DNA from: a virus
Lineage: Duplodnaviria > Heunggongvirae > Uroviricota > Caudoviricetes
IMG/VR virus record: IMGVR_UViG_3300042940_001739
Direction: 5' to 3' (one strand)
Length of the DNA: 64,000 nucleotides
In this document: positions 45,521-57,815 of the stretch, piece by piece
How the letters are laid out: each line of letters starts with the position of its first letter
Numbering within the stretch: the first letter of the stretch is position 1
Position numbers and translations under genes: made by a program
The notes under the pieces: model-generated
Database searches by the model: none
What the model was told of the DNA's origin: nothing
Seen by the model: the letters and a program-made list of their open reading frames with translations, nothing else

Positions 45521-46909
45521 ATGACAATCAAACAAATTTTTGACGAAATAGCAGCAGAGCCAGGTACAAACCAAAAGATGGTTATCTTGGGTAAATACCG
45601 AGACAACAAACTCTTAGAACAAGTGTTGTACCTGGCTAATTCGAAGCGTGTCAAATTTTATATCAAGCAACTCCCGGAGTATCTATTTTTTCCTAGTGGT
45701 GAAATGGGATTAGATTCAGCATTAGACGCATTGACTGAATTATCTTCAAGAAAGGTAACGGGTCATTCAGCTATTGGTCATTTGGTTCATATATTATCAT
45801 CATGCACGCCAGATGACTCTTATATCATTGAGCGTATCATTGAGAAAGATTGTCGCTTAGGAATGGGTACAACAAACATCAACAAAATATTTAAGGATCT
45901 TATTGAAGATACTCCTTACATGGGAGCAATTTCATTTGATGAAAAGAAGGCACGTGCAGTGTTTAACAACGACAAACGTGCTTATTCACAGATCAAAATG
46001 GATGGACGTTATTGCAATGCAATTATTCGTAACGGCGAAGTTGAATTAGAATCTCGTCAAGGTGAGCCAACCATAGTAACTGGTGCAACCTTTTTGCAAG
46101 AGTTAGCAGACTTTCCTGATTGTGTATTGAATGGAGAGTTGACTATCGATGGAGTATCTCGCTATGAGTCTAACGGAATCATTGCATCTATCATCAGCAT
46201 CTTAAGTAAAAAGGAATCGCGAGGTCCTGCAGAGACATTGAAACATATTGCTAAGTTCCAACAAAAACATGGAGACTTCTCTGTGGCATTAGAGTCAATA
46301 CGCTTTACGGTTTGGGATACAATCACAGTAGATGAATACTTTGATCAACGTTCGACAACACCTTATTCAGAACGCATTGTTAACTATTCAACGGCACTAT
46401 ATGATTTGAAACCTACAATGATATCTGCAGTTGAAATGCACGATGTAGCAACATATGAAGAAGCAATCCGATACTTCCAAGAAGCATTAGCAGATGGCCA
46501 AGAAGGAACAATACTTAAGGCAATTGATGGCGGATGGAAAGATGGTAAACCAAATTGGCAAATCAAAATGAAACTTGAAATGGATGTGGATCTTCGCATC
46601 ACAGGTTTCAATTATGGTACCGGAAAGAATATCAACGTCATATCTTCGGTTAATGCTGAATCAAGTGATGGTAAGGTTGTTACTCGTCCGACAGGCATTA
46701 ACGAAGCTATGATGCAATACATTACCGACAATCAAGAAACATTGTTAGGTAGCGTTGTGGAATGTAAGTGTTCCGGATTGTCTCAAGACTCTGATGGTAA
46801 CTATTCATTGTTGCATCCAGTATTCAAATCGTTGCGTGATGATAAAGACACTTGTGATGACTTGCAATCAATCATTGCAATTGAAAATATGGTTAAAGGA
46901 TTAGCGTAA
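45521..46909 (+). CDS. ATP-dependent DNA ligase
   Basis: Motif I KMDGRY (KxDG). Motif IV/V region EGTILKAIDGGWKDGKPNWQIKMK. Class II motif upstream. Confidence 0.7.
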   Translation: MTIKQIFDEIAAEPGTNQKMVILGKYRDNKLLEQVLYLANSKRVKFYIKQLPEYLFFPSGEMGLDSALDALTELSSRKVTGHSAIGHLVHILSSCTPDDSYIIERIIEKDCRLGMGTTNINKIFKDLIEDTPYMGAISFDEKKARAVFNNDKRAYSQIKMDGRYCNAIIRNGEVELESRQGEPTIVTGATFLQELADFPDCVLNGELTIDGVSRYESNGIIASIISILSKKESRGPAETLKHIAKFQQKHGDFSVALESIRFTVWDTITVDEYFDQRSTTPYSERIVNYSTALYDLKPTMISAVEMHDVATYEEAIRYFQEALADGQEGTILKAIDGGWKDGKPNWQIKMKLEMDVDLRITGFNYGTGKNINVISSVNAESSDGKVVTRPTGINEAMMQYITDNQETLLGSVVECKCSGLSQDSDGNYSLLHPVFKSLRDDKDTCDDLQSIIAIENMVKGLA

Positions 46910-47094
46910 TGAGTGCAGTGAATCGTCCCAACATGAACTTTGATAACGAACGCAAAGAACATATACCTTACTCAGCTACACAGCAACCTAAGGATATGAA
47001 GGCATTGTATGATAAACTTATGAATTCTCCGGACATTAAGCCTCATACGGTAAGAGATAGACAAGTATATAACAAATGGTTTAAAGCAAAATAA
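46909..47094 (+). CDS. Hypothetical small protein
   Basis: ORF only. Confidence 0.25.
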   Translation: MSAVNRPNMNFDNERKEHIPYSATQQPKDMKALYDKLMNSPDIKPHTVRDRQVYNKWFKAK

Positions 47095-47095
47095 T

Positions 47096-47317
47096 ATGAT
47101 GTTAATAGTAGTAATAGACGCATTGATCTTAGTTGGATTGATATTAGCTCTAAGAGATAACAACAAGCTTGTTAATGAAATGCTAAAGTTCCAGTTAGTA
47201 ACTAGTTCTCATATTGAAGAGCTTTGCAAAGAAGTAGCTGATTTAGTACAACGGGTTGATGAATTAGAAGCACAAGCAAAAAAACAAGGATGGCCTTATG
47301 ATCCTACAAAAAAATAA
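47096..47317 (+). CDS. Small membrane-anchored protein
   Basis: TM MLIVVIDALILVGLILAL. Confidence 0.3.
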   Translation: MMLIVVIDALILVGLILALRDNNKLVNEMLKFQLVTSSHIEELCKEVADLVQRVDELEAQAKKQGWPYDPTKK

Positions 47318-47320
47318 ATT

Positions 47321-47563
47321 ATGAAAAAGTTATTGGTATTAGTTGCAGTAGCAACCATTATGACTTCATGTGGTAAGTCAGATTACAAATACACAATCGT
47401 AGACAGCAACGGCGCCCGTTACGGAGCAGACTTCTACAACGAAACCGGTGAAGGTTGCATCTTATTCAATGATAAGAATTGTGGATGCAGCGACACAGAA
47501 GGACCAGGAACACCAACCAGATTGTGTGGATCATATACAATTGTAGAGAATCAAACAAAATAA
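47321..47563 (+). CDS. Putative lipoprotein
   Basis: Signal peptide plus lipobox-like IMTSCG. Confidence 0.35.
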   Translation: MKKLLVLVAVATIMTSCGKSDYKYTIVDSNGARYGADFYNETGEGCILFNDKNCGCSDTEGPGTPTRLCGSYTIVENQTK

Positions 47564-47564
47564 T

Positions 47565-47762
47565 ATGTTTACAGGATTTTACGATTTTATGGATGAGGCG
47601 TATGCTAACGAACTTAAGGTATCGGTTGAAACGTGGATCACAGTTATTGAAGACCAATGCACAATGGAAGAAGCTAAGTTCATTACGGATGCTATATGGG
47701 ACGAGACTGAAGACATTGAAAAAGCCAAACAATTATTTTACAGCAAACTTAAAGAACAATGA
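47565..47762 (+). CDS. Hypothetical small protein
   Basis: ORF only. Confidence 0.25.
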   Translation: MFTGFYDFMDEAYANELKVSVETWITVIEDQCTMEEAKFITDAIWDETEDIEKAKQLFYSKLKEQ

Positions 47763-48007
47763 CACAACGAGAAATTGATAACGCAGTCTCAATTATTAAT
47801 GAAGCTAACACACAGCTTCGCGTAGCAAAAGATAAACTAGATACGCAAGAATCGATCATCAATGCACAAACTGAGATGATTGAAATACTGAAATCTAATC
47901 TGCAAGCCCGAGACAAACTGATCACAATATTAGAGTCACAGTTACGGATTCAAGATGCAGCATTGGATCGCAATTCAGACAACTCAAAACAATTGCTTAC
48001 AGATTAA
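47759..48007 (+). CDS. Hypothetical coiled-coil protein
   Basis: ORF only. Confidence 0.25.
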   Translation: MTQREIDNAVSIINEANTQLRVAKDKLDTQESIINAQTEMIEILKSNLQARDKLITILESQLRIQDAALDRNSDNSKQLLTD

Positions 48008-48140
48008 ACACAATGAAACGAGTAATGAGTCAAGATGAGATTAAACTTTGGATAGATAGATGGTCAAAATTAAAACCTTCACCTAAAAGAGATATGGTGA
48101 TAAAAATTTGGTCTAATTTAATTACTAAATAACAAACACA

Positions 48141-48335
48141 ATGGAAAAAACAGCAGTAGAATGGTTGATTGAAAATTCTCATATAATTCCTAAAAATGAA
48201 CTAAATAAAAGAGAGTTAATTAAACAAGCCAACGAAATGTTTGAGCAACAGATTGAAGATGCTTGGAAAGATGGTTTTTTTGAGAAAAGCGATTCATCTA
48301 AAATATACTACCATAAAACCTTTAAAATAGAATAA
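48141..48335 (+). CDS. Small paralog family member (MEKTAVEWLIE...)
   Basis: N-terminus and KMFE(Q/K)QI(E/I)DA shared with the next ORF. Confidence 0.3.
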   Translation: MEKTAVEWLIENSHIIPKNELNKRELIKQANEMFEQQIEDAWKDGFFEKSDSSKIYYHKTFKIE

Positions 48336-48584
48336 ATGGAAAAGACAGCAGTAGAATTTTTAGTAGAAACTTTTGTAAGACATTTTGGTACTGGATGGCT
48401 TGCTGATGAAACTATAAAAAAAGAAATCGAGCATGCCAACAAAATGTTTGAGAAACAGATTATTGATGCTTCAAATGAAAGTTACTTAAATAGTGAATTA
48501 ATAAAGAGAAGTGTTAAAAATAAAAATGTATTTTCTGTTGGAGAACAATACTACAACGAAACCTTTAAAAAACAAAAACAATGA
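48336..48584 (+). CDS. Small paralog family member (MEKTAVEFLVE...)
   Basis: Tandem duplicate of 48141..48335. C-terminal YYNETFKKQKQ is repeated again at 48583-48717. Confidence 0.3.
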   Translation: MEKTAVEFLVETFVRHFGTGWLADETIKKEIEHANKMFEKQIIDASNESYLNSELIKRSVKNKNVFSVGEQYYNETFKKQKQ

Positions 48585-48714
48585 AAAAACCAAAACATAT
48601 TAGAACTGAACCTATAAAAAGTTCAATAACGGGAAAACGAATAGGTACAAAATACATTTATGATGAAAAAGAATTAATGCAATATTACAACCCAACCTTT
48701 AAACAACAAAAACA

Positions 48715-49056
48715 ATGAAAAAATTAAAATTATATCTTGGTGCAGTAATTGTGATAGTTATTATGATTATTTTACAACTTAATCATAAAGATACTGAGGC
48801 TGTCGACATTAGTGGTAACTCTCGAGAAGTTTCTCTAGGAGAAGAGTTCACAGGTCGTGTTATAGAGATAATACCAAATTCAAGTCCTAAACAGCAATAC
48901 AGAAACATCCTTATGGAATGTGAAGATGGTACTAAAGTTTATTTTACCGTAACATTATCTGATGCTGATAAATGTAGTGTAGGCAGTGAAATAAAGATAA
49001 AAGTAATATCTGACACTTGGTTCTATAGAAATGATGTTGATGTGGATACTATTTAA
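48715..49056 (+). CDS. Membrane-anchored hypothetical protein
   Basis: TM LYLGAVIVIVIMIIL. Confidence 0.3.
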   Translation: MKKLKLYLGAVIVIVIMIILQLNHKDTEAVDISGNSREVSLGEEFTGRVIEIIPNSSPKQQYRNILMECEDGTKVYFTVTLSDADKCSVGSEIKIKVISDTWFYRNDVDVDTI

Positions 49057-49194
49057 AAACAGAACAATGAAACAAGATAAAACATGGCTATTGCTACCAA
49101 TGTTTGCATATAGCAAATATAGTGATGGAACTCAGGAGATTTCTTTTGGGTGGATAATAAAAACATTTTTTATTAAATTTTAAATCAGAATAAG

Positions 49195-49392
49195 ATGAGC
49201 TATATAAAATGTGTTTCGTGTGGTAAACAAGAATTTAAAGATTATTCAACTCCGAATATTCATTATTCAGCAGAAGAAAATGACACACGTAATTTTAAAT
49301 GTAAGTGGTGTTTAAGTTTTGAATCATTAAAAGTTGGTGAATGGTATCAAACCGCTGATGGAGAATATCACCAAAAACAAGAAGAACAATGA
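49195..49392 (+). CDS. Zn-ribbon small protein
   Basis: CVSCGK...CKWC cysteine pairs. Confidence 0.3.
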   Translation: MSYIKCVSCGKQEFKDYSTPNIHYSAEENDTRNFKCKWCLSFESLKVGEWYQTADGEYHQKQEEQ

Positions 49393-49561
49393 AAGATAAA
49401 AATTCGTTAATACCAAGTGATGCACATTCATTAGAGGTATTTGCTATAAAAGATTGTGATGAATCTCCAACAGGTAAACAAGCATTTATTGGTTTTAAAA
49501 TTAGTAATGGTGATTTTCATTTTATACAAGTTCCATACACAGAACCTAAACAACAAGCCCA

Positions 49562-49795
49562 ATGACACTTAAAGAATACATAGAAGGATTACAATTGTTC
49601 GCTAAGGAGAATCCAGATGCATTAGAGTTACAAGTTATTACCGCCGCAGATGATGAAGGCAATGGATACAAGCAAGTTCATTACAGTCCAACGAAAGGAA
49701 ATTATGATAACGATGATGATAGTTTTATTTCAGACGTCTGCTTTGAAGAATGGGACATGGAAGATGCTGAAGTCAACGCAGTCTGTGTAAATTAA
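49562..49795 (+). CDS. Acidic hypothetical small protein
   Basis: ORF only. Confidence 0.25.
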   Translation: MTLKEYIEGLQLFAKENPDALELQVITAADDEGNGYKQVHYSPTKGNYDNDDDSFISDVCFEEWDMEDAEVNAVCVN

Positions 49796-49807
49796 AATAA
49801 CCTCAAA

Positions 49808-49832
49808 GTGTCTGCTTCGGTAGGCACTTTTT
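49808..49832 (+). terminator. Rho-independent terminator (gtgtctgc-ttcg-gtaggcac + T5)
   Basis: 8-bp stem with two G:U pairs, TTCG loop, TTTTTACTG tail. Confidence 0.55.
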
Positions 49833-50272
49833 ACTGGGCGTCCAAACTAAGTAGAAGATTAGCAGTTTACGGATAAGCTTCTAAATAATAATATTGCAAC
49901 GAAGAGTAACGTAACGAATACAACAAGTATTATAAGTATATGTGTTAATAAGAGAACGTAGAGTAAGACTCGAACAAGTAAGTATTTAATTTTACCCTGG
50001 CCCAGCAAGACTCTGGTGTCTAATAGAAAGATGACCTTCATAGATATTGTCAATGTTTCCCAGTATAATATTGATACATTCTATGTATGGTAGTAGAGAA
50101 ACGGTGTCTAGTAAAGGAATGTAAGGATGGTAATGCCCCTTTCAGCCGTTCCTATTTATTTACGCGGGGCATAGACTCTATATTGCCGGCCTCTGAATAT
50201 CAGTAATCCATACAGGCCTAAATGTTCTTAAACGCGAACTAAGAGGCTGGAGATGGAGGAGAGGGTATAGGC

Positions 50273-50550
50273 TATTTTTAGTCCAATACCAACGTATTTT
50301 TAGACGTAAGCACTGATTCTATTTTTAGAAGGATATCCTATTTTTAGATCACGATTCATTTTTAGATGCGTTGTGTCATTATATATAGTATCCTGAATGC
50401 TTCTATTTTTAGACGGATTAGTTCTATTTTTAGAAGCTTATGTGTTATGGGTTCTATTTTTAGACGATTTTTAGAGCAATATGCCGTTATTTTTAGAATC
50501 TATTTTTAGATGCATGCCGCACTTTTAGAACGTATATGCGGTTTTAGTTC
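50273..50550. repeat. Iteron-like array of ~13 direct repeats, core (C)TATTTTTAGA(N)G
   Basis: Copies start at about 50273, 50296, 50319, 50338, 50357, 50403, 50424, 50454, 50466, 50488, 50500, 50520 and 50541. Spacing is mostly 19-23 bp. No ORF. Confidence 0.7.
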
Positions 50551-50600
50551 GGTTTGCTAGCTATTGAGAGACGAAACTTTCCGGAATATTTGCGCGCGTA

Positions 50601-50650
50601 TGGTTGGATTCTAGACATAGATTTCATATTATATAAATGTAAATAAGAAG
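50601..50650 (+). promoter_or_regulatory. Class II promoter-like motif (tGGTTGGATt...TTTCATATTATATAAatgtaaataag) with no protein gene downstream
   Basis: Same bipartite motif as upstream of 26585, 41700, 43089 and 45521. Confidence 0.4.
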
Positions 50651-50940
50651 GAAGGGTTATTATCCAACCAAATGCTGAAAGGCGGCCACAAGGATATTAA
50701 ATATAGATACGTATTGGGAAAGGTCTATCCTATAAACAGAACATGGATCAAACCGGTATGGCAACCACAAGCTACATGTAGCTAACACCGTCATACCATA
50801 AATGTCGGCAGGGTCCGGGAATAACGCGCTCGAAAGACGCACCCGGCGGTCCGACGTTAGGTAAGCTGATCGGGTTTCTCTCTCTTTACCTTGATCGGGT
50901 AGTAGTCCGGGCATCGTTTAGGCGGTGCCTATACTGCTGA
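50650..50940 (+). ncRNA. Candidate structured non-coding RNA (GC-rich island in AT-rich DNA)
   Basis: ~290 nt at roughly 50% GC with imperfect long-range complementarity (gtcggcagggtccggg...cccggcggtccgac). Largest + ORF is 41 aa (50672-50797). Sits downstream of a class II promoter motif and upstream of the first class I promoter. Confidence 0.3.
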
Positions 50941-50967
50941 AAACATTTTCGAAACTTTTTTCCGAAA

Positions 50968-51002
50968 AGATTAGGATCGCATTGATATTATACTTATCTT
51001 TA
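50968..51002 (+). promoter_or_regulatory. Class I bipartite promoter AGATTAGGAT-N15-CTTATCTTTA (copy 1)
   Basis: Exact boxes with 15-bp spacer. ATG of a 51-aa ORF 26 nt downstream. Confidence 0.55.
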
Positions 51003-51027
51003 TATTATTAATTAAAAAGAGAGATAT

Positions 51028-51183
51028 ATGTATAGTTTGAATTGTAGTTATTATGAGAAAGAGTTTACCAGCATCGACGAGTTGTTGGATGATGTAATGT
51101 ATTCGGGCATGGATCCGAATTATGAAATTACCCGTAACGGTGTTAGCACGGGAGAAACGTTAGCAGATTTAATTAGTTATTAA
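51028..51183 (+). CDS. Small acidic hypothetical protein (51 aa)
   Basis: ORF directly behind class I promoter copy 1; below the track's 60-aa cut-off. Confidence 0.3.
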   Translation: MYSLNCSYYEKEFTSIDELLDDVMYSGMDPNYEITRNGVSTGETLADLISY

Positions 51184-51198
51184 TATAAAAAAGAGACT

Positions 51199-51432
51199 AT
51201 GAGTTTAAGAGAAAGATTGATTGCAGTAGGATTTGTACCAGTTGACCTTAAGGCCGGCAATGTTAAGATAGGAGACAACATTGCGAATAATAATATGATA
51301 TTCGGCGAGTTGATTAAAATTACCAAGAAAGGTAATTATGTAGTTCGCTTTGATATGGACTATGCAGATGAAAAGCCGTCAAAGTTTCCACCGGAAGTGT
51401 TTGAAAGATTCTTCCTTGTAGATAAAAGATAA
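51199..51432 (+). CDS. Hypothetical small protein
   Basis: ORF only. Confidence 0.3.
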   Translation: MSLRERLIAVGFVPVDLKAGNVKIGDNIANNNMIFGELIKITKKGNYVVRFDMDYADEKPSKFPPEVFERFFLVDKR

Positions 51433-51457
51433 ACTTTTCTGAAACTTTTCTTGGAAA

Positions 51458-51492
51458 AGATTAGGATCGCATTCTAAAAATGCTTATCTTTA
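51458..51492 (+). promoter_or_regulatory. Class I bipartite promoter (copy 2) plus leader element aagcaattagggaatggtcc
   Basis: Exact boxes with 15-bp spacer. Confidence 0.55.
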
Positions 51493-51535
51493 TTATAAGC
51501 AATTAGGGAATGGTCCTTAATATAAAAAAAGAGAT

Positions 51536-51910
51536 ATGAAAAAAGAAGCAAAAGTAGAATTTGGAATTGTAATTACAAAGCCATGGAGTTCAGAGATGTA
51601 TGCTCACAATGAGCAAGTAGCAGATGTGGTTCGCGAGACGGTATTAGGAATGTGGAATGATGCAATAAATGAATTCCAAGAGGATAAGGGAGAAGAGTTT
51701 ATGTCCGATGTTGAATGGATTTTAGCTCCAGAAAAATTAGAAAACGTCCAAAGAGCTATTACATGTTACGGGTTTGGATATGGATATGATGTAGCAGCAG
51801 TATCTGAAAGAGTAATACAAGAATTAGAAGATGCTCCTTTATTCCGTTTAAAAGAGATAGCAGAAGATTTAGAGATTGAATTAGAAAAAGGGTTTGTTGG
51901 CTTTAGTTAG
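51536..51910 (+). CDS. Hypothetical acidic protein
   Basis: ORF behind class I promoter copy 2. Confidence 0.35.
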   Translation: MKKEAKVEFGIVITKPWSSEMYAHNEQVADVVRETVLGMWNDAINEFQEDKGEEFMSDVEWILAPEKLENVQRAITCYGFGYGYDVAAVSERVIQELEDAPLFRLKEIAEDLEIELEKGFVGFS

Positions 51911-51931
51911 CCAGCAAACTTTTCTGGAAAA

Positions 51932-51966
51932 AGATTAGGATCTGAACATTAAAATGCTTATCTTTA
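51932..51966 (+). promoter_or_regulatory. Class I bipartite promoter (copy 3)
   Basis: Exact boxes with 15-bp spacer. Confidence 0.55.
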
Positions 51967-51978
51967 TAAAAAAAGGCT

Positions 51979-52128
51979 ATGAAAAGATTAAAAGTAAGAA
52001 CCGTAGAGCAACAAATCAAAGAAGGTAAAATTGAGTGCATCACTGACATTAAATTGGGTTATGTTGAAATCCGCAGATGTGCAACCGGTGTGAGAGAAAC
52101 CATTAAAGTTATTCGAAACAAATATTAG
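51979..52128 (+). CDS. Small basic hypothetical protein (49 aa)
   Basis: ORF behind copy 3; below the track cut-off. Confidence 0.3.
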   Translation: MKRLKVRTVEQQIKEGKIECITDIKLGYVEIRRCATGVRETIKVIRNKY

Positions 52129-52156
52129 AAAAAGGTTGTTTCCGAACATTATAATG

Positions 52157-52166
52157 CTTATCTTTA
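52157..52166 (+). promoter_or_regulatory. Degenerate class I promoter (-7 box CTTATCTTTA retained, upstream box diverged)
   Basis: aaaaaggttgtttccgaacattataatgcttatcttta. Confidence 0.35.
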
Positions 52167-52182
52167 TAAAAAAGAAAGAGAT

Positions 52183-52362
52183 ATGAAAAGGAAATTAGAA
52201 TTGCAATTAAGAGCTGAATATAATGTATATCAGGCTAAAGCTCATCCCGAGGATCAAATGTCGTTTATGGATTATGTACAGCAATTAGGCAGATTCCATG
52301 GATTTAAGGTTAATGTAAAAACATCATGGGATTTAGATTATGTAATAACCTTTACAAAATAA
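52183..52362 (+). CDS. Small hypothetical protein (59 aa)
   Basis: ORF behind the degenerate promoter. Confidence 0.3.
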   Translation: MKRKLELQLRAEYNVYQAKAHPEDQMSFMDYVQQLGRFHGFKVNVKTSWDLDYVITFTK

Positions 52363-52439
52363 TTTAAACAAAGTTTGCAAAAAGGTTGGATCGCATTGAT
52401 ATTATCGGTATATTTAAGTATTAATTTAAAAAGAGAGAT

Positions 52440-52700
52440 ATGGAAAGAGAATTTAAGATTGATTTAGTGTTAGCAACGGAGATAGCACAGTTTTTGGAAA
52501 CATTGCTTGAGGCAGAGTTGAATGAGGAATTTGATTCAAGCCGAGCATGTACAGACACTTACCTGGACCAATTTGATCCGAATGGCTTTGTCCCGTTTAA
52601 TCAGCTAATGCAAGCGCTTATTAAAGCCGGCGTGGTAATTCCGCAAATAGCTCCGGAACAAGGCATTGGATTGGATAATTTGCAAAGACGATTCCAGTAA
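52440..52700 (+). CDS. Acidic hypothetical small protein
   Basis: Preceded by the variant promoter aaaaggttggatcgcattgatattatcgg. Confidence 0.3.
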   Translation: MEREFKIDLVLATEIAQFLETLLEAELNEEFDSSRACTDTYLDQFDPNGFVPFNQLMQALIKAGVVIPQIAPEQGIGLDNLQRRFQ

Positions 52701-52724
52701 AAAAGTTTAAAAAAAGTTGCAAAA

Positions 52725-52759
52725 AGATTAGGATTCGAAAGATAAAATGCTTATCTTTA
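52725..52759 (+). promoter_or_regulatory. Class I bipartite promoter (copy 6)
   Basis: Exact boxes with 15-bp spacer. Confidence 0.55.
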
Positions 52760-52778
52760 ATAAAATAAAAAGAGAGAT

Positions 52779-53174
52779 ATGAAAAAAGTAAATTTAGCAG
52801 AACAATTGAATGCGTTTGCATCAGGCAGAATCATTGACAGTGAAGGATCAGAAAATGATTGTTTTAACTTTTATGATTGGTTCTGCAAAGATTCATCATT
52901 AGAGCGCAAAGCAAATGCATTGTTCCCAAAGGTAAAAAAGTTTGTTGCAGCAACTCAAGTTGACATCTTGGATACATATGTGTTCTTTAAAAATAATTGT
53001 CCGATGAATGGACCATTATATGATGATTTCCGTATATGTGATGAGAACGGAGTTTTATTCACAGTAATTCCTAAATGCGGTCATACCGGCAAAGCTGAAA
53101 TATGGGGAAAGAATGATTCCGGCGTATTTGAATGCTTAAAACAAGCAGAAACATTTTCGAAACTTTTCTCCTAA
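52779..53174 (+). CDS. Hypothetical Cys-containing protein
   Basis: ORF behind copy 6. Confidence 0.35.
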   Translation: MKKVNLAEQLNAFASGRIIDSEGSENDCFNFYDWFCKDSSLERKANALFPKVKKFVAATQVDILDTYVFFKNNCPMNGPLYDDFRICDENGVLFTVIPKCGHTGKAEIWGKNDSGVFECLKQAETFSKLFS

Positions 53175-53175
53175 A

Positions 53176-53210
53176 AGATTAGGATTCGAAAGATAAAATG
53201 CTTATCTTTA
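53176..53210 (+). promoter_or_regulatory. Class I bipartite promoter (copy 7) plus leader element aagcagaaagggaaatggttcc
   Basis: Exact boxes with 15-bp spacer. Confidence 0.55.
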
Positions 53211-53255
53211 TATAAGCAGAAAGGGAAATGGTTCCCAATCATAAAAAAGAGAGAA

Positions 53256-53447
53256 ATGGCAATAGGCAAAAAAAATTCAGGAAAGTTTCAGCAAGATGCA
53301 GTAATTGGTCAATTTGCAAGAGATGCACGTAGAGCAAGAGAAATTAGTCCAATCGTTAAAGCAGCTTTAGCAGCAGGAGAGCGCAACCGAATCTACCGCG
53401 CAGAGCAAGAAGCTAAGGCTAAATTGAATCCGCGCTTCGTAAGATGA
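53256..53447 (+). CDS. Small basic hypothetical protein
   Basis: ORF behind copy 7. Confidence 0.3.
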   Translation: MAIGKKNSGKFQQDAVIGQFARDARRAREISPIVKAALAAGERNRIYRAEQEAKAKLNPRFVR

Positions 53448-53542
53448 TAATGGCGGCGATAGGTATCACGATGGCGGCGATAGTCGTAACGGGATTAGTA
53501 GCATCAATAGTATCAATAATAGATTCACGTAAATAAAGAGAG

Positions 53543-54283
53543 ATGGCAAAAAGAATTCATGTAAGCACCGGAGCTATAGTAGCAACAGCAGAGAGCACAA
53601 CGCAGTATATGCGTGAGATTAAAAAGTTAGCAACCTTGACACGAGAGCAAGAGATTGAGTTAGCAAACCAAATCCAAGCGGGAGACACACGCGCTATGAA
53701 TAAATTGGTTGAGTCTAATTTGCGATTTGCGATCCAGGTAGCTAAGCAATATCAAGGTATGGGATTGCAGTTAGAAGACCTTATTGGGTTCGCTAATGTA
53801 GGATTGTTTGAAGCCGCTGAGCGTTTCGACCCAACTAAAGGCGTCAAGTTTATTACCTTTGCAGTATGGTATATCAGAGCCGAGCTTCAGAAGGCACTCA
53901 ATGATTTGTCCCGTGTTGTAAGGATCCCATCACACCGTACGGCAACTGAGGAGTATTCAACCAAGAGTATTTCAACTCCGGTAGGCGATGATGATAACAA
54001 AGAGACTTATGCGGATCGCTTCTTAGAAGCTGAGGCAACACGATCAGGCAGAGACCGCGCGGACATGACATTTGATATCAATCGAGCATTGAGTCAATTG
54101 AAGCCTAAGCAAGAAGAAGCCATTCGTCGCAATTATGGGATCGGTATGGAGTATGCTCAGAGCATGGAGCAGATTGGTGAAGAGATGGGCATCACAAATG
54201 AGCGCGCTCGTCAATTGGTCCGTCAAGCTGAGATTGCATTAGCAGGCTTACCAGGCATCAAGCTATTGGAACAATACCTGTAA
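53543..54283 (+). CDS. Sigma-70-family RNA polymerase sigma factor (phage-encoded)
   Basis: Region 2 (LRFAIQVAKQYQGMGLQLEDLIGFANVGLFEAAERFDPTKGVKFITFAVWYIRAEL) and region 4 HTH (SMEQIGEEMGITNERARQLVRQAE). Confidence 0.7.
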   Translation: MAKRIHVSTGAIVATAESTTQYMREIKKLATLTREQEIELANQIQAGDTRAMNKLVESNLRFAIQVAKQYQGMGLQLEDLIGFANVGLFEAAERFDPTKGVKFITFAVWYIRAELQKALNDLSRVVRIPSHRTATEEYSTKSISTPVGDDDNKETYADRFLEAEATRSGRDRADMTFDINRALSQLKPKQEEAIRRNYGIGMEYAQSMEQIGEEMGITNERARQLVRQAEIALAGLPGIKLLEQYL

Positions 54284-54307
54284 CATTTCTGAAAAAAAGT
54301 TTCAAAA

Positions 54308-54342
54308 AGATTAGGATTCGAACATTATTATACTTATCTTTA
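54308..54342 (+). promoter_or_regulatory. Class I bipartite promoter (copy 8) plus leader element aagcaattagggaaaggtcc
   Basis: Exact boxes with 15-bp spacer. Confidence 0.55.
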
Positions 54343-54387
54343 TTATAAGCAATTAGGGAAAGGTCCTTAATTTAAAACCAAAGAGAG

Positions 54388-54510
54388 ATGAGAGATTTTT
54401 TAACATTAGCATCAGTAGCAGTAGGAGGAATCCTTTTAGCAGGAGGTAACGACTTAGGAATATTGTTTGTATTCCCGGGAATTATTTACACAATCAGAAC
54501 CGCAGAATGA
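54388..54510 (+). CDS. Tiny membrane protein (40 aa)
   Basis: Hydrophobic LASVAVGGILLAGG...ILFVFPGIIY; behind copy 8. Confidence 0.25.
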   Translation: MRDFLTLASVAVGGILLAGGNDLGILFVFPGIIYTIRTAE

Positions 54511-54611
54511 TACCAGAAGGATTCACACCGGAGGAGTTTAAGCGCGTAGTGACTCAAGCAACCTTAGCTGTAAGCGCATTGATATATGTTGAACTTTATA
54601 ATTAAGAGACG

Positions 54612-54758
54612 ATGAAAAGAGAGATGAAGCCGTTAGAAGAAAAGATCAAAGCATTGAGATCAATCATGGAGTATTGGGAGTGTTTCTTCCAAGATGATGA
54701 AGTAGGCCAAGCATTAGCTGAGGTTGAAGCAGAATTAGACAAGTTCCGATTCAAGTAA
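54612..54758 (+). CDS. Small hypothetical protein (48 aa)
   Basis: ORF only. Confidence 0.2.
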   Translation: MKREMKPLEEKIKALRSIMEYWECFFQDDEVGQALAEVEAELDKFRFK

Positions 54759-54782
54759 AAAAGTTTCAAAAAAGTTCCAAAA

Positions 54783-54817
54783 AGATTAGGATCCTATCAT
54801 TATTAACCTTATCTTTA
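54783..54817 (+). promoter_or_regulatory. Class I bipartite promoter (copy 9)
   Basis: Exact boxes with 15-bp spacer. Confidence 0.55.
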
Positions 54818-54838
54818 ATAAAATAAAAAGAGAAAGAT

Positions 54839-55051
54839 ATGTTAAAAGACGCAATCGCATTATTAAGTCAGTTCGGATTAGTTGATGGTAACACATTACC
54901 AGACTCGACGCCAGGCACACAGTATCAATTTAGAAGTTGTTCTCCGAACCTAATAGTACCAGCACCAGGTATGAAAACAGTTATATCAGGCCTTTTAAAG
55001 GATCATGGGTACACGGTTAAAGCAATCGGAACAATGTTAAAATTAGTTTAA
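54839..55051 (+). CDS. Hypothetical small protein
   Basis: ORF behind copy 9. Confidence 0.3.
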   Translation: MLKDAIALLSQFGLVDGNTLPDSTPGTQYQFRSCSPNLIVPAPGMKTVISGLLKDHGYTVKAIGTMLKLV

Positions 55052-55076
55052 AAAAAGTTTAAAAAAAGTTACCAAA

Positions 55077-55111
55077 AGATTAGGATCGCATCATTATTAT
55101 CCTTATCTTTA
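55077..55111 (+). promoter_or_regulatory. Class I bipartite promoter (copy 10) plus leader element aaggaagttagggaatagtccc
   Basis: Exact boxes with 15-bp spacer. Confidence 0.55.
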
Positions 55112-55165
55112 TTATAAGGAAGTTAGGGAATAGTCCCACAGTTTAAAAACCAAAAAAGAGAGATT

Positions 55166-55582
55166 ATGAAAAAAATTGAATTGATTGCAAAGTTAGAAGG
55201 CGCTAAAGAATTGACGTCAGTAGTATCGATCGACTTAGTATTGACAGCATTAAGTATGTTGGAAGACGAAGCTCCAAAAGGCTTCAGCCTCAAAGGCGCG
55301 CAGTTTGACTTGTTAATGGACAAGATCCAAAGTGCCGTAGACCAAATGGACCGACGCGAGTTGATAGATAAAGACTCCGCGGAGTTTGAGTTAGATTGGA
55401 ATAATGTAGTTAGCTTAAGTGATGTATCAGTCGACTTTGATTATGTATACAATAGCATCCGCGACGAGTTGGAGGAGCTTGTTGAAGACGAAGAAGAAGA
55501 TGAGGAAGCTGAAGCAGACGAAGAAGGTCCTGTTTATCCTGAGGAGTTAGATGAGTTAGCTGAATTAGACATAGAAGAATAA
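55166..55582 (+). CDS. Hypothetical protein with poly-acidic C-terminus
   Basis: EELVEDEEEDEEAEADEEG tail. Confidence 0.35.
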   Translation: MKKIELIAKLEGAKELTSVVSIDLVLTALSMLEDEAPKGFSLKGAQFDLLMDKIQSAVDQMDRRELIDKDSAEFELDWNNVVSLSDVSVDFDYVYNSIRDELEELVEDEEEDEEAEADEEGPVYPEELDELAELDIEE

Positions 55583-55602
55583 GATATATCTCTCAGTCCA
55601 AA

Positions 55603-55624
55603 GCCCTAGCAGAAATGTTAGGGC
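55603..55624 (+). other. Conserved hairpin gccctagc-agaaat-gttagggc (third copy, no T-run)
   Basis: Identical to the terminator hairpin at 39441. Confidence 0.5.
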
Positions 55625-55647
55625 ATTAGGACGTAAAAAAAGAGATA

Positions 55648-55797
55648 TGATAAGAAGCAAAAAAGAAATCCAGGACGCAAATGCATTATTAATAGCAATG
55701 CACGTATTCATTGTAGCCAATAACATGAAGCATCTATTCGGCGATGCACTCAATACAATTGGAGCCGCAATTGCTGAAATCCACCAGGAAAAATAAT
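55648..55797 (+). CDS. Small hypothetical protein (49 aa)
   Basis: ORF only. Confidence 0.2.
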
Positions 55798-55815
55798 TGA
55801 AACTTTTCTTGAAAA

Positions 55816-55850
55816 AGATTAGGTTAATTGAAATAAAATGCTTATCTTTA
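55816..55850 (+). promoter_or_regulatory. Class I bipartite promoter (copy 11, upstream box AGATTAGGTT) plus leader element aagcagaaagggaaaggccc
   Basis: 15-bp spacer conserved. Confidence 0.5.
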
Positions 55851-55895
55851 TATAAGCAGAAAGGGAAAGGCCCAAGACGCATTTATAATTAAATC

Positions 55896-56852
55896 ATGAG
55901 AGAGATGATGAACGTATTTGAACCAGTAAGAGTAAAAGGTAAATTAGTAGCAAAAAATGTTAAGTCAGGAGAGATTGCAGGAAAAGATTTGATCCGACAC
56001 ATTCAATTGCTTAATGCAGAAAAGAATCGTCAGTTGTTAATGGTTGCTCCAAACGGCAGAGTAACAAGACTTGATAGTACCACAACAAGCTCAACACCAT
56101 CAGCACCTAGCAAGATGTCATTCATGTCAGTAGTTGAGACTAGAGATCCTGAGACAATGTTTGGCAACTTGGAGCGTCTGACTAAAATGGTAGGGCGAGG
56201 CATTCAACCATCATTGGTCATCACAGGTATGGCAGGTGTCGGCAAGACGCACCTTGTTAAAGAGACACTAAAGCAAATGGGCTTGAAGGAGTCATATGAC
56301 TTTGAGCATTTCAAAGGTAAAGCAACCGCGGCAGGTTTGTATATGACATTGTATGCTAACTCAGACAAGATTGTAGTATTAGATGATTGTGATTCAGTAT
56401 TCAAAGATGATGATGCAGTCAATATCCTTAAGGCGGCACTTGACTCATATGACACTCGTCAGATCTCATATATCTCAACGAAGCCTTTGAAAGATGAGTT
56501 TGGCGAACCGATCCCATCACGCTTTGAGTTCACAGGTAAGATCATTTTTATCTCAAACATCAACCAAAGCAAATTAGATGAGGCGATCCGTAGCCGTAGC
56601 TTTGTAGCAGACATTAGCATGAACACTGAGCAAATGTTTACAAGAATGGAGCAGTTGTTACCTACCATGGAGTCACGTATTCCATTAGCGGCAAAGCAAC
56701 AAGCATTAGATGTTATGAAGGCGCTCCACGCTAAGTATGACGGAGTAGACATCAACCTAAGAAGTTTTATCAAAGCATCACGAATTGCGGCGATGGGCTT
56801 CCCGGCAGATGAAGTAGAGAATTTAATTGCAGAGCAGATCATCGCGGCATAA
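55896..56852 (+). CDS. P-loop NTPase (AAA-like ATPase)
   Basis: Walker A VITGMAGVGKTHL and Walker B KIVVLDDCD. Confidence 0.5.
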   Translation: MREMMNVFEPVRVKGKLVAKNVKSGEIAGKDLIRHIQLLNAEKNRQLLMVAPNGRVTRLDSTTTSSTPSAPSKMSFMSVVETRDPETMFGNLERLTKMVGRGIQPSLVITGMAGVGKTHLVKETLKQMGLKESYDFEHFKGKATAAGLYMTLYANSDKIVVLDDCDSVFKDDDAVNILKAALDSYDTRQISYISTKPLKDEFGEPIPSRFEFTGKIIFISNINQSKLDEAIRSRSFVADISMNTEQMFTRMEQLLPTMESRIPLAAKQQALDVMKALHAKYDGVDINLRSFIKASRIAAMGFPADEVENLIAEQIIAA

Positions 56853-56928
56853 GACATATCATATCTCTCAATATGAAAGAGGCCGGCATCGAAAGGTGTC
56901 GGTTTCTACTGTAAAATAAATCAAACAA

Positions 56929-56963
56929 ATCGGCAAAAAGATTAGGATCCTATCCCGATAAAC
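56929..56963 (+). promoter_or_regulatory. Class I bipartite promoter (copy 12) plus leader element tagcaattagggaaaggccc
   Basis: Exact boxes with 15-bp spacer. Confidence 0.55.
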
Positions 56964-57025
56964 CTTATCTTTATATATAGCAATTAGGGAAAGGCCCTAA
57001 GCTTAATTAACTAATAAGAGAGAGT

Positions 57026-57226
57026 ATGACAAAAGTAAAAGAGTTTGTAGCAGCAGAGTTAAAAGGATTAGAGAGAAGCTTCATTGCAACTCCAGACCGC
57101 AGAGAGTACCTAGAGTCATTTGCAAAAGCAAATCAAGGAAGCATGGACTTAGTGCTAATGCAAATGGCAATTCAATTCGGAGCCAAGCTAGCATTAGAGA
57201 ATGTACAAGAGTTATTAGGTAAGTAG
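57026..57226 (+). CDS. Hypothetical small protein
   Basis: ORF behind copy 12. Confidence 0.3.
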   Translation: MTKVKEFVAAELKGLERSFIATPDRREYLESFAKANQGSMDLVLMQMAIQFGAKLALENVQELLGK

Positions 57227-57249
57227 TATTAATATATAACAAGAGAGAC

Positions 57250-57486
57250 ATGACAAAGAAAGAGATGATCCAAAACATTCAGAAGCTAGAAGCAATATTC
57301 TTTTTGAATGCAAAGCAATTAGAATTAGACTATGGCAAAGACGAGCCAATGTATCGTTCAGCAATTAACAAATGGTTAGGAGTCAACATGTTGATGCAAG
57401 ACTTAGACATTGATGGAGATTGGTCATTGCCAGAAGCTAGGGAAGCAGCAGACTTGATATGCCTTATATCCAAGAAGCGAGCCTAA
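57250..57486 (+). CDS. Hypothetical small protein
   Basis: ORF only. Confidence 0.3.
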   Translation: MTKKEMIQNIQKLEAIFFLNAKQLELDYGKDEPMYRSAINKWLGVNMLMQDLDIDGDWSLPEAREAADLICLISKKRA

Positions 57487-57506
57487 GCCAAATATAGCCA
57501 GAACAT

Positions 57507-57533
57507 GGGGGGAGTAATAGCCCCCCTTTTTTT
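57507..57533 (+). terminator. Rho-independent terminator GGGGGG-agtaatag-CCCCCC + T7
   Basis: Perfect 6-bp G:C stem plus T7. Confidence 0.65.
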
Positions 57534-57580
57534 GTGGGGTAGCCCCCCTAGTATAGACCCCTTTGACCCCCCATGATTTA

Positions 57581-57609
57581 GGGGGGTGGGGGAGGGTTTC
57601 GTTAAGGGG
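57581..57609 (+). other. G-quadruplex-type motif GGGGGGTGGGGGAGGGTTTCGTTAAGGGG
   Basis: Four G-runs of at least 3, with loops of 1, 1 and 9 nt. Embedded in a region of G and C homopolymer tracts (57507-57625). Confidence 0.4.
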
Positions 57610-57815
57610 TAGAACACCCCCATCTAGATAGTGGTGCTAATATATGTTTTTCTAGCGCGGGAAGATTTTTTGCTGAGGGAGAAGACTCTTTATTGTATAT
57701 GGCGGTGCCATAGAGCTATTATTAATATATAGTACGTTTCGGAGCCTCCCTACGCTAACGCTTCAGTCAGCACCTCACGTAGCCACCAAATTAACGATCT
57801 CCGATATTTATTAAT

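What the first reader, a model, noticed from the sequence alone, without database searches (positions are those of the whole stretch)
50273..50550. Iteron-like array: about 13 direct copies of TATTTTTAGA in 280 bp inside a 1.2-kb gene-free region
The short AT-rich repeat recurs with roughly two-helical-turn spacing (19-23 bp), on one strand only, in the largest non-coding stretch of the window (49.8-51.0 kb). The array sits at the transition between the gene array and the early promoter module. This is the classic look of replication-origin iterons or a multi-site regulator array (repressor or anti-terminator). It is not a CRISPR: the repeats are only 10 bp and the spacers are irregular and tiny.
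Basis: seen in the sequence. Interest (0 to 1): 0.65.

Follow-up and report, generated by a model that had tools for sequence, protein, structure and literature searches.

The report
Conserved protein-binding repeat array in phage
A large uncultured phage of Bacteroidota-type bacteria carries 13 same-strand copies of a 12-base motif just upstream of its early genes; relatives keep the array, so it is almost certainly a docking platform for one DNA-binding protein, most likely a replication origin or a gene-switch control site.

Summary
Window 50272-50548 holds 13 same-strand copies of (T)CTATTTTTAGA: 8 exact 10-mers, 3 with one mismatch and 2 degenerate. No exact copy lies elsewhere in the 64 kb. 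More than 25 related uncultured phage contigs have 8-24 copies at the same place. The motif is kept while spacers diverge. Copies favour a 10.75-11 bp helical phase. One lineage has mostly switched to TATTTTTCG. A matrix built only from relatives ranks the window's 11 best sites all inside the array.

So this is a single-locus array of sites for one sequence-specific dsDNA-binding protein. It is not CRISPR, not chance and not an RNA motif.

The setting is conserved: array, a 30-bp conserved block, a probably phage-sigma-type promoter, an RNA with hairpin loops antisense to the shared early-gene leader, then about 12 early promoters, a phage sigma gene and an AAA+ gene.

Function is unresolved:
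- replication-origin iterons activated by the adjacent promoter (about 0.4);
- operator or enhancer array for that promoter (about 0.3);
- packaging or terminus recognition (about 0.12).

No binding protein was identified.

The parts
50272..50366 (+). Array cluster A: 5 copies of (T)CTATTTTTAGA, with 11-mers starting at 50272, 50294, 50319, 50338 and 50356
   Evidence: PWM scores 15.7-19.9 bits
50367..50402 (.). Gap between the clusters (TGCGTTGTGTCATTATATATAGTATCCTGAATGCTT), AT-rich. The 47-bp step is kept in relatives L001, L003 and L006.
50403..50548 (+). Array cluster B: 8 copies starting at 50403, 50424, 50454, 50465, 50487, 50500, 50519 and 50538. The last two are degenerate. The spacing pattern 21, 30, 11, 22 is shared with relatives.
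50547..50577 (+). Conserved block GTTCGGTTTGCTAGCTATTGAGAGACGAAAC. The family consensus is GTTCGGTTnnCTAGCTATACrGAGTAAAC. It lies between the last repeat and the promoter and is also kept in the TCG-motif lineage.
   Evidence: Alignment; L150 and L151 sequences
50602..50635 (+). Class II promoter-like element GGTTGGAT-N17-TATTATATA. The same consensus precedes genes near 905, 14390, 25250, 26540, 43040 and 45475. Inferred to be read by the phage sigma factor.
   Evidence: It sits 0-100 bp after the array in nearly all relatives.
50804..50855 (+). Highly conserved GC-rich element GTCGGCAGGGTCCGGG..CGAAAG..CCCGGCGGTCCGAC, 93-96% identical in relatives whose flanks are about 70% identical
50866..50898 (+). 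Hairpin whose loop UUCUCUCUCUUU (50876-50887) is antisense to the early-gene leader AAAGAGAGA
   Evidence: (I14)
50969..51003 (+). First class I (early) promoter GATTAGGAT-N17-TATCTTTA. It is the first of about 12 near-identical copies up to about 57000.
50103..50183 (+). Conserved modules upstream of the array: a GGTGTCTAGTA box (also at 50015-50025), the hairpin ATGCCCC...GGGGCAT (50133-50172), and TAGACTCTATAT (50172-50183)
   Evidence: (D9)
49807..49832 (+). Hairpin AGTGTCTGC-TTCG-GTAGGCACT followed by T5, directly after the last upstream gene. It is terminator-like, and the consensus scan did not list it.
   Evidence: Read from the sequence; one search found no terminator
53543..54283 (+). 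Phage sigma-70-family gene (regions 1.2, 2 and 4) in the early module. It is conserved in all array-bearing relatives.
55896..56852 (+). AAA+ ATPase of 318 aa with a confident N-terminal beta-beta-alpha-beta-beta domain. It is as conserved as sigma. It is a candidate array binder or initiator, but this is unproven.

Best explanation
Shown by comparison: the array is a set of 13 binding sites on double-stranded DNA for one sequence-specific protein. Each site is a small semi-palindrome (TCTA-TTTT-TAGA). Sites tend to lie on one face of the helix. Bound protein would therefore form a long phased nucleoprotein complex immediately upstream of a phage-type promoter.

Inferred: the protein is phage-encoded. 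Also inferred, and my preferred function, is that this complex is the phage's replication origin. The repeats would act as iterons. An initiator loaded on them would distort the AT-rich array and the adjacent AT-rich promoter (GC 23-25% at 50600-50640). Transcription from that promoter, once the early-expressed phage sigma is made, would help open or prime the origin, as at lambda, T7 and T4 origins. Forks would then run co-directionally with the one-strand gene array. The neighbouring conserved AAA+ protein with a small N-terminal domain is the best, but unproven, candidate initiator.
For: Reality and uniqueness:
- 11 of 13 copies fall within 300 bp, against at most 3 in simulations.
- A position matrix built only from relatives ranks the 11 best sites of the whole window, on both strands, inside the array: 14.3-20.8 bits against 12.8 for the best site outside.

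Selection on the motif:
- More than 25 IMG/VR contigs, with sigma 60-81% identical, carry 8-24 same-strand copies at the syntenic place, with diverged spacers.
- The core TA[T/C]TTTTAG is near-invariant in 325 distinct sites, which were picked by their TTTTAG core.

Specific recognition:
- The L150/L151 lineage has mostly GTATTTTTCGT at the same place, with the same block and promoter downstream.

dsDNA level:
- Pair distances peak at 10.75-11 bp, z about 8.8 over 18 arrays.
- Extra foldability is equal on both strands, z -2.8 and -2.9.

Iteron-like form:
- Inverted sub-repeats converge on an A/T tract, as described for RepA_N iterons in PMC7145576.
- The array is AT-rich at 25-33% GC, against about 45% in the flanks.
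- It lies in the largest non-coding stretch and is a single locus.

Promoter adjacency:
- A class II promoter lies 0-100 bp downstream in nearly all relatives.

Candidate initiator:
- A conserved AAA+ gene, which JGI names 'Cdc6-like AAA superfamily ATPase' and which has faint Hda/RFC matches, lies 5.3 kb downstream in every relative that extends far enough.
Against: - There is no direct evidence of initiation here. Cumulative GC skew rises straight through the array.
- Pfam, PHROGs and NCBIfam scans of about 75 window proteins recognised no initiator (RepA_N, lambda O-like or DnaA-like).
- The AAA+ protein could not be classified. The AF2 model had pLDDT 60, and Foldseek returned only generic AAA+ matches.
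- Copy number (8-24) and irregular spacing (11-47 bp) exceed those of classical iteron origins.
- By my own knowledge, large lytic phages often initiate by R-loops or recombination rather than iterons.
- The tight coupling to one promoter fits a transcriptional role equally well.
- The phasing statistic pools related arrays, and in the window alone it is weak (0.20 at 10.5 bp).
Confidence: 0.4

Rival explanations
1. Operator or enhancer array for the adjacent promoter. A phage protein polymerises on the repeats and activates or times the class II promoter at 50602-50635. That promoter drives an RNA carrying hairpin loops antisense to the early-gene leader. The array would then be the control element of the early-to-middle switch.
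For: - The array always ends 0-100 bp from this promoter, in a fixed orientation.
- In L118, L123, L138, L140 and L147, copies overlap the -35-like element or the spacer.
- The window promoter's own spacer holds degenerate copies (TCTAGAcaTAGAT).
- The RNA region carries conserved anti-leader hairpins in 20 of 23 loci.
- Variable copy number and irregular spacing are typical of homotypic site clusters in regulatory DNA.
- The conserved AAA+ protein with an N-terminal domain next to the sigma gene could be an enhancer-binding-type activator. Foldseek's top hits include sigma-54 activators, but on a poor model.
Against: - Thirteen to 24 sites is far more than known bacterial or phage operators use for one promoter.
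- The six other class II promoters in the window have no such sites.
- The array persists in L149-L151, where no anti-leader loop was found.
- The sigma here is sigma-70-type, which does not need AAA+ activators.
Confidence: 0.3
2. Packaging or terminus recognition site. The repeats bind the small terminase, like lambda cosB R sites, P1 pac hexamers and SPP1 pac boxes, or they are terminus-adjacent repeats like T7 SRL/SRR. The conserved block at 50547-50577 would be the cut or boundary site. The early genes would then be packaged last and injected first.
For: - The array lies exactly between the end of a 50-kb co-directional gene array (with lysis and auxiliary genes) and the first early promoter. 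That is where T7-like and T5/SPO1-like genomes have their ends (own knowledge).
- A unique conserved 30-bp block adjoins the array.
- The sites are helically phased and AT-tract-centred.
- The array is a single locus.
- Several contigs break within 1 kb upstream: L120, L134, L139, L140, L122 and L352.
Against: - The contig ends are not at homologous positions, and L118 reads through where L120 stops.
- The breaks are explained by the hypervariable upstream region.
- No terminase gene is in the window.
- The array is longer than known pac or cos binding regions.
- No read data were available to test for fixed ends.
Confidence: 0.12
3. Intrinsically curved, UP-element-like DNA with no dedicated binding protein. 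Phased T5 tracts would bend the DNA and stimulate RNA polymerase at the neighbouring promoters.
For: Each unit has a T5 tract. The units are phased at about 11 bp. The early promoters also carry phased AAACTTTT tracts upstream.
Against: The flanking bases CTA and AGA are as conserved as the T tract. One lineage changed A to C at a single flanking position in most copies. Neither is needed for curvature.
Confidence: 0.05
4. RNA-level element. The array is transcribed, and the repeated UAUUUUUAGA motifs titrate an RNA-binding protein, like a CsrB-type sponge.
For: All copies are on the transcribed strand. Read-through from upstream genes is conceivable in relatives where the upstream gene ends only 30-70 bp before the array.
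Against: - There is no conserved promoter upstream.
- In the window, a hairpin followed by a T-run separates the last gene from the array.
- Helical phasing at about 11 bp has no meaning for RNA.
- Extra foldability is the same on both strands.
- There is no Rfam match.
Confidence: 0.03

Closest known systems
Iteron-type replication origins of plasmids and phages (P1 oriR/incA, lambda ori, P4 ori/crr, and RepA_N-type iterons of pSK41/pTZ2162 and the PLE satellite)
   Same: Both are multiple same-orientation direct repeats at one locus. Preferred spacing is in multiples of one helical turn. The unit is a semi-palindrome converging on an A/T tract, as RepA_N iterons are described in PMC7145576. 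The surroundings are AT-rich. Repeats abut or overlap a promoter, as in P1, F and pSC101 (own knowledge). The motif changes in a mostly concerted way between lineages.
   Different: The unit is shorter (11-12 bp against 17-22 bp). There are more copies (8-24). Spacing is irregular. No Rep, O or RepA_N gene is adjacent or detectable. The promoter drives a small RNA or peptide rather than an initiator. Replication function is untested.
Promoter-dependent origins of lytic phages (T7 phi1.1A/B with an AT-rich region; T4 oriF/oriG middle promoter with an unwinding element; T4 oriE with iterons). Cited from my own knowledge.
   Same: A middle-type promoter sits next to AT-rich DNA at the early/middle boundary of a lytic phage. 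What lies downstream of the promoter is poorly conserved between clades, which suggests that transcription itself matters.
   Different: Those origins, apart from oriE, have no long repeat array. Here the transcript carries conserved hairpins that have a plausible function of their own.
Terminase recognition sites and terminus-adjacent repeats (lambda cosB R sites, P1 pac hexamers, SPP1 pacL/pacR boxes, T7 SRL/SRR heptamer arrays beside the terminal repeat). Cited from my own knowledge.
   Same: Clusters of short direct repeats flank a unique conserved segment. The site lies at the junction between the last late genes and the first early genes. The sites are phased and centred on an A/T tract.
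   Different: No terminase gene is nearby. No terminus has been demonstrated. The array is longer and has more copies than cos or pac sites.
Plasmid centromeres made of short iterons (R1 parC: two sets of five 11-bp repeats flanking the parMR promoter). Cited from my own knowledge.
   Same: The repeats are about 11 bp, lie in two clusters and are associated with a promoter.
   Different: No ParM/ParR or ParA/ParB genes are conserved here. The weak ParB-like match of window 58307-58747 is absent from relatives. The spacing is not contiguous. The genome looks like that of a lytic phage.
CRISPR arrays
   Same: Both have direct repeats separated by unique spacers.
   Different: The repeat is only 11-12 bp and the spacers are 0-36 bp and irregular. 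No cas genes are present. Orthologous 'spacers' are conserved by descent rather than acquired. A genuine CRISPR array with a 66-bp period does exist in distant relatives L037-L045, which shows the contrast.

Membership tests
Iteron-type replication origin | Three or more direct repeats of one motif, in the same orientation, at a single locus | tested here: met
   13 copies on the + strand. The top 11 PWM sites of the window are all in the array.
Iteron-type replication origin | Repeats spaced in register with the DNA helix | tested here: inconclusive
   The family-wide peak is at 10.75-11 bp with z about 8.8. In the window alone it is weak (0.20), and individual spacings are 11-47 bp.
Iteron-type replication origin | A cognate initiator protein that binds the repeats, usually encoded nearby | tested here: not met
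   Pfam, PHROGs and NCBIfam found no Rep, O, RepA_N or DnaA-type protein among about 75 window proteins. The only candidate is an unclassifiable AAA+ protein 5.3 kb away. Binding cannot be tested with these tools.
Iteron-type replication origin | An adjacent AT-rich unwinding element | tested here: inconclusive
   The array is 25-33% GC, and 50600-50640 is 23-25% GC. However, that stretch is a promoter, and no unwinding was modelled.
Iteron-type replication origin | Replication actually starts there | not testable with these tools
   This needs marker-frequency data or replication assays. GC skew shows no inflection, which is uninformative when all genes are on one strand.
RepA_N-type iterons | Semi-palindromic direct repeats whose inverted sub-repeats converge on a poly-A tract (PMC7145576) | tested here: met
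   TCTA-TTTT-TAGA, from the sequence and the logo. The sub-repeats are only 3-4 bp.
RepA_N-type iterons | A RepA_N (PF06970) initiator encoded by the element | tested here: not met
   No such Pfam hit in the window proteins scanned. The rest of the genome is unseen.
CRISPR array | Repeats of 23-50 bp with spacers of similar, regular length, usually with cas genes | tested here: not met
   The repeat is 11-12 bp and the start-to-start spacing is 11-47 bp. TRF found no period. No cas domains were found (the Pfam calls).
Terminase pac/cos recognition site | A genome terminus or packaging start maps at or next to the repeats | tested here: inconclusive
   Contig ends cluster upstream but are not homologous. 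No reads were available.
Terminase pac/cos recognition site | Terminase small-subunit gene adjacent (usual for pac and cos) | tested here: not met
   No terminase in the 64-kb window.
Bacteroidota sigma-A promoter (-33 TTG / -7 TAnnTTTG; own knowledge) | A -7 box TAnnTTTG with TTG about 20 nt upstream, found in front of genes | tested here: not met
   The motif reads TAttTTTAg, with an extra A before the G. Its variant is TAttTTTCg. The logo shows no preference upstream within its 14-nt range, which does not reach -20. The motif does not recur before genes.
Plasmid-type centromere (parC/parS/sopC) | Partition ATPase and adaptor genes next to the repeats | tested here: not met
   There is only a weak, non-conserved ParB-like match, E = 3e-4.

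The most novel reading that the evidence does not exclude
The array, the phage-sigma-type promoter and the anti-leader hairpin RNA are one machine for shutting off early genes. A phage protein, possibly the conserved AAA+ protein with its small N-terminal domain, polymerises on the 13 phased sites. It acts as an enhancer-like platform that drives very high, timed transcription of a small RNA. The RNA's UUUCUCUCUCUU loops pair with the AAAGAGAGA(U)AUG leader shared by almost all host-takeover mRNAs and silence them together. That would be a phage-encoded, sigma-70-linked enhancer together with a global anti-leader sRNA. To my knowledge, neither has been described for Bacteroidota phages.
Probability: 0.15. 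Interest if true: 0.8.

Novelty: new member of a known kind. Interest (0 to 1): 0.5.

Why it matters
The array belongs to an abundant, entirely uncultured clade of 100-175 kb phages. Their conserved AAA+ protein has 2286 database relatives. The T9SS sorting domains in window proteins point to Bacteroidota hosts. Nothing is known about where such phages start replication, how they package DNA or how they switch from early to middle expression.

The array is a sharply defined, experimentally tractable cis-element. It has a 12-bp motif, one locus and a natural specificity variant. A pull-down or EMSA could therefore identify its binding protein directly. Together with the promoter classes and the anti-leader RNA found beside it, the array gives a first regulatory map of this clade.

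If it is the origin, it supplies a part for building replicons or for marker-frequency studies in Bacteroidota phages. By itself, though, a repeat array in a phage intergenic region is a familiar kind of feature.

Tried and rejected
1. Known phage: megablast and blastn of the region and of 20 kb against 50,697 phage records found nothing. The nearest isolates, Cellulophaga phages phi4:1 and phi17:2, share a ligase at 52% but have different synteny and no close sigma.
2. Known RNA: Rfam at gathering and at E up to 10 gave only tRNAs and noise.
3. Tandem-repeat reading: TRF finds no periodic array.
4. Promoter reading: the motif does not recur before genes, and sigma-70-type scans are at chance level.
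5. Host or prophage origin: a scan of 185,579 bacterial and archaeal genomes for three spaced copies returned only regular tandem repeats in unrelated organisms.
6. Physical terminus from contig ends: the ends are not homologous.
7. Ligase-anchored distant relatives (L009-L080) lack the early module nearby, so they were uninformative.
9. More TCG-variant arrays: only the two contigs already known turned up. The other hits are 9-bp tandem repeats in giant-virus contigs.
10. AAA+ protein classification failed. PDB sequence and profile searches were insignificant, the AF2 model had pLDDT 60, and Foldseek gave generic AAA+ matches with TM about 0.27. Comparing N-terminal domains between the TAG and TCG lineages showed differences but had no statistical power.
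11. The TAGACTCTATAT box as a third promoter class: it is not enriched in the window.
12. Similarity between the non-coding stretches at 49.8-50.3 kb and 57.5-57.8 kb, as possible repeat boundaries: it does not exceed shuffles.
13. RNAalifold on the anti-leader hairpins failed because of indels in the stems. Single-sequence folds were used instead.
14. Literature: no paper mentions the motif in a relevant setting, and no paper describes promoters of these phages.

Full report
**1. The observation**

Reading 49500-51300 and searching for the 10-mer shows 8 exact and 3 one-mismatch copies of TATTTTTAGA on the + strand between 50273 and 50510. Two degenerate copies follow at 50519 and 50538. No exact copy occurs anywhere else in the 64 kb.

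Eleven hits within 300 bp compare with a maximum of 3 in 200 Markov simulations. No other 10-mer in the window clusters comparably.

The spacings are 22, 25, 19, 18, 47, 21, 30, 11, 22, 13, 19 and 19 bp. 'Roughly two turns' is therefore a tendency rather than a rule. TRF finds no period.

The unit is really 12 bp and semi-palindromic: TCTA-TTTT-TAGA. It has a weak downstream preference nSAAT, seen in a logo of 325 distinct sites from 23 loci.

The gene-free stretch is 49796-51027. All credible genes in the window are on the + strand.

**2. What genome this is**

DNA searches against 50,697 phage records find nothing.

The window encodes GroEL, ATP-dependent DNA ligase, RNA ligase, thymidylate synthase and a MoxR/VWA pair. 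It also encodes glycosyl- and methyltransferases, a holin/hydrolase lysis pair and five tRNAs. Several proteins carry type-IX-secretion sorting domains, which points to a Bacteroidota host.

The nearest isolates are Cellulophaga phages phi4:1 and phi17:2, with a ligase 52% identical. Their synteny differs, and no cultured phage has a close homologue of this phage's sigma factor.

IMG/VR holds many relatives on contigs of 100-175 kb. The conserved AAA+ protein has 2286 database relatives.

**3. The surroundings**

Downstream, from 50960 to about 57000, nearly every small gene has its own copy of a 45-bp promoter, AAAAAGATTAGGAT-N15-CTTATCTTTAT ('class I', about 12 copies). It fits the Bacteroidota -33 TTG / -7 TAnnTTT layout (own knowledge). 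In relatives the -33 part reads TTGACA.

The module contains a sigma-70-family gene at 53543-54283 with regions 1.2, 2 and 4. It also contains an AAA+ gene at 55896-56852.

A second promoter class, GGTTGGAT-N17-T(C/A)TATTATATA ('class II'), precedes the ligase, the MoxR gene, a PD-(D/E)XK nuclease and other genes. I infer that the phage sigma reads this class. One class II promoter sits at 50602-50635, 55 bp after the last repeat.

**4. Conservation**

The six closest relatives by ligase identity (at least 81%) carry 10-17 copies at the same place. Anchoring on the sigma gene shows an array of 8-24 TTTTAG-core copies, 1.7-7 kb upstream of sigma. It is present in essentially every contig with sigma at least 60% identical that extends far enough.

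The motif is retained while the spacers diverge. Part of the spacing pattern (47, 21, 30, 11, 21-22) is shared between the window and relatives whose intergenic DNA is only about 70% identical.

The order of elements is constant:
- the array;
- a conserved block, GTTCGGTTnnCTAGCTATACrGAGTAAAC (window 50547-50577);
- the class II promoter, 0-100 bp from the last repeat and overlapped by repeats in L118, L123, L138, L140 and L147;
- about 350 nt of variable sequence;
- the first class I promoter.

Genes upstream of the array are not conserved between relatives. Sigma and the AAA+ protein downstream are conserved.

**5. Evidence that the array is a protein-binding array on dsDNA**

(a) A matrix trained only on relatives puts the 11 top-scoring sites of the entire window, on both strands, inside the array. 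The recognising factor therefore has one target locus.

(b) Pair distances between copies in 18 arrays peak at 10.75-11 bp. The z-score is about 8.8 against random placement. The caveats are that the arrays are related, and that the window alone gives only 0.20.

(c) Contigs L150 and L151 (sigma 61% identical) carry, at the syntenic spot, an array built mostly of GTATTTTTCGT in 11-bp tandem units. The same block and class II promoter follow it. A mostly concerted A-to-C change across copies is what a change in the specificity of one binding factor predicts. It is not needed for mere curvature.

(d) The array folds slightly better than shuffles on both strands equally (z -2.8 and -2.9). That is expected of a palindromic DNA motif and not of a strand-specific RNA. 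No conserved promoter precedes the array. In the window, a hairpin plus a T-run follows the last gene.

(e) No such arrays exist in 185,579 bacterial and archaeal genomes.

I put about 0.8 on 'an array of sites for one sequence-specific dsDNA-binding protein'. That the protein is phage-encoded is an inference.

**6. Which function**

*Origin.* The form matches iterons. The copies are same-orientation repeats at one locus with helical register. The unit is a semi-palindrome converging on an A/T tract, as RepA_N iterons are described in PMC7145576. The DNA is AT-rich. The array abuts a promoter, as in the P1, F and pSC101 origins, and phage origins activated by transcription are well known in lambda, T7 and T4 (own knowledge).

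A conserved AAA+ gene lies 5.3 kb away. JGI calls it 'Cdc6-like AAA superfamily ATPase', and it gives faint Hda/RFC matches. Its N-terminal 60 residues fold confidently as beta-beta-alpha-beta-beta.

Against this reading, no initiator family was recognised, and the AAA+ protein could not be classified. GC skew shows no inflection, although that is uninformative here. Copy number and spacing are atypical.

*Regulator array.* The strict adjacency to the class II promoter, and the overlap with it in some relatives, favour this reading. So does the nature of that promoter's product (section 7). Against it, 13-24 sites for one promoter would be unprecedented, and other class II promoters have none.

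*Packaging or terminus.* The position between the last late or auxiliary genes and the first early promoter is right, and so is the unique conserved block. Several contigs, including an independent assembly of the same phage (L352), break within 1 kb upstream. However, the breaks are not at homologous positions. They coincide with the junction between a hypervariable region and the conserved early module. No terminase gene is nearby.

I therefore rank origin at about 0.4, regulator at about 0.3 and packaging or terminus at about 0.12. Curvature alone is about 0.05 and an RNA-level role about 0.03.

**7. Found beside the array**

The RNA region between the class II promoter and the first early promoter contains one to three hairpins. 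Their 12-29-nt loops carry UUUCUCUCUCUUAUU (window hairpin 50866-50898).

This loop is the reverse complement of the leader AAAAAGAGAGAUAUG. That leader precedes 15 of 17 early genes but only 2 of 92 other genes in the window.

The CU motif occurs at 7.9 per kb in this region, against 0.18 per kb elsewhere across 23 loci. All 19 hairpins examined fold with CUCUCU unpaired in the loop, while the stems differ between loci. Some relatives carry CAUAUCUCUC, which is antisense to the leader including the start codon.

This suggests a middle-phase anti-leader RNA that silences the early mRNAs. It is an inference from sequence and was not tested. It lies outside the finding's coordinates. If the array controls this promoter, the three parts would form a single early-to-middle switch.

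**8. Comparison and novelty**

The array works like iterons or other homotypic binding-site arrays. Membership in 'iteron origin' fails on the initiator criterion and is untestable on the replication criterion. It is not a CRISPR array, a centromere or a promoter cluster.

It is a new member of a familiar kind of element, in a clade where no cis-element has been described. Interest is moderate for the array alone and higher for the regulatory region as a whole.

Noticed in passing
window 50640-50960 (hairpin 50866-50898, loop 50876-50887); leaders of genes at 51028-57250: A + strand region driven by the class II promoter carries hairpin loops UUUCUCUCUCUU(A)UU. These are antisense to the leader AAAAAGAGAGAUAUG found before 15 of 17 early genes but only 2 of 92 other genes. 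The loops are conserved in 20 of 23 related loci while the stems vary. This may be an anti-leader small RNA that shuts off early genes.
   Followed up: partly
window 50960-57000: About 12 near-identical 45-bp early promoters (AAAAAGATTAGGAT-N15-CTTATCTTTAT) each precede a small gene. Phased AAACTTTT tracts lie upstream of them. This resembles a host-takeover module like that of SPO1.
   Followed up: partly
window ~905, ~14390, ~25250, ~26540, ~43040, ~45475, 50602: A second promoter class, GGTTGGAT-N17-T(C/A)TATTATATA, precedes DNA-metabolism and auxiliary genes. It is presumably read by the phage sigma factor.
   Followed up: partly
window 53256-54283 and 55166-55582: A sigma-70-family gene lacking region 1.1 is preceded by a conserved, very basic 63-aa protein. 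Further downstream lies a protein with an extremely acidic C-terminus. These may be partners or modulators of RNA polymerase.
   Followed up: no
window 50804-50855: A GC-rich element GTCGGCAGGGTCCGGG..GCTCGAAAGAC..CCCGGCGGTCCGAC is 93-96% identical in relatives whose flanks are about 70% identical. It is also present in many other clades. It has no Rfam match.
   Followed up: partly
window 50015-50025, 50103-50183: Further conserved non-coding modules lie upstream of the array: GGTGTCTAGTA boxes, and a hairpin ATGCCCC...GGGGCAT followed by TAGACTCTATAT. They are shared with L118, L128, L132 and L134, and in modified form with L150 and L151.
   Followed up: partly
window 57487-57815: A 329-bp non-coding stretch at the far end of the early module is rich in G6 and C6 tracts (GGGGGGAGTAATAGCCCCCC...). 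It contains AAGACTCTTTAT, which resembles the box upstream of the array. The similarity does not exceed chance.
   Followed up: partly
L039 15590-16430 (also L037-L045): Distant relatives carry a genuine CRISPR-like array: 13 repeats (..TTCCGTAAGGGAATCACAAC) at a 66-bp period. It lies downstream of ORFs of 753, 362, 280 and 234 aa.
   Followed up: no
window 46909-49795 compared with relatives; L352 position 1: The dozen small genes just upstream of the array have essentially no counterparts in relatives, whereas the downstream early module is conserved. Several assemblies break at this junction, so it appears to be a hypervariable or recombination-prone boundary.
   Followed up: partly
window 11463-13337, 16006-17715, 34846-36897: Phage proteins carry type-IX-secretion C-terminal sorting domains (Por_Secre_tail, CHU_C) together with cohesin, lectin, SprB and PKD domains. 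This indicates a Bacteroidota host and possibly secreted or surface-displayed phage proteins.
   Followed up: no
window 39095-39503: A 409-bp gene-free stretch after gene 38183-39094 contains hairpin-like segments and ends in a class II-like promoter. It was not examined.
   Followed up: no
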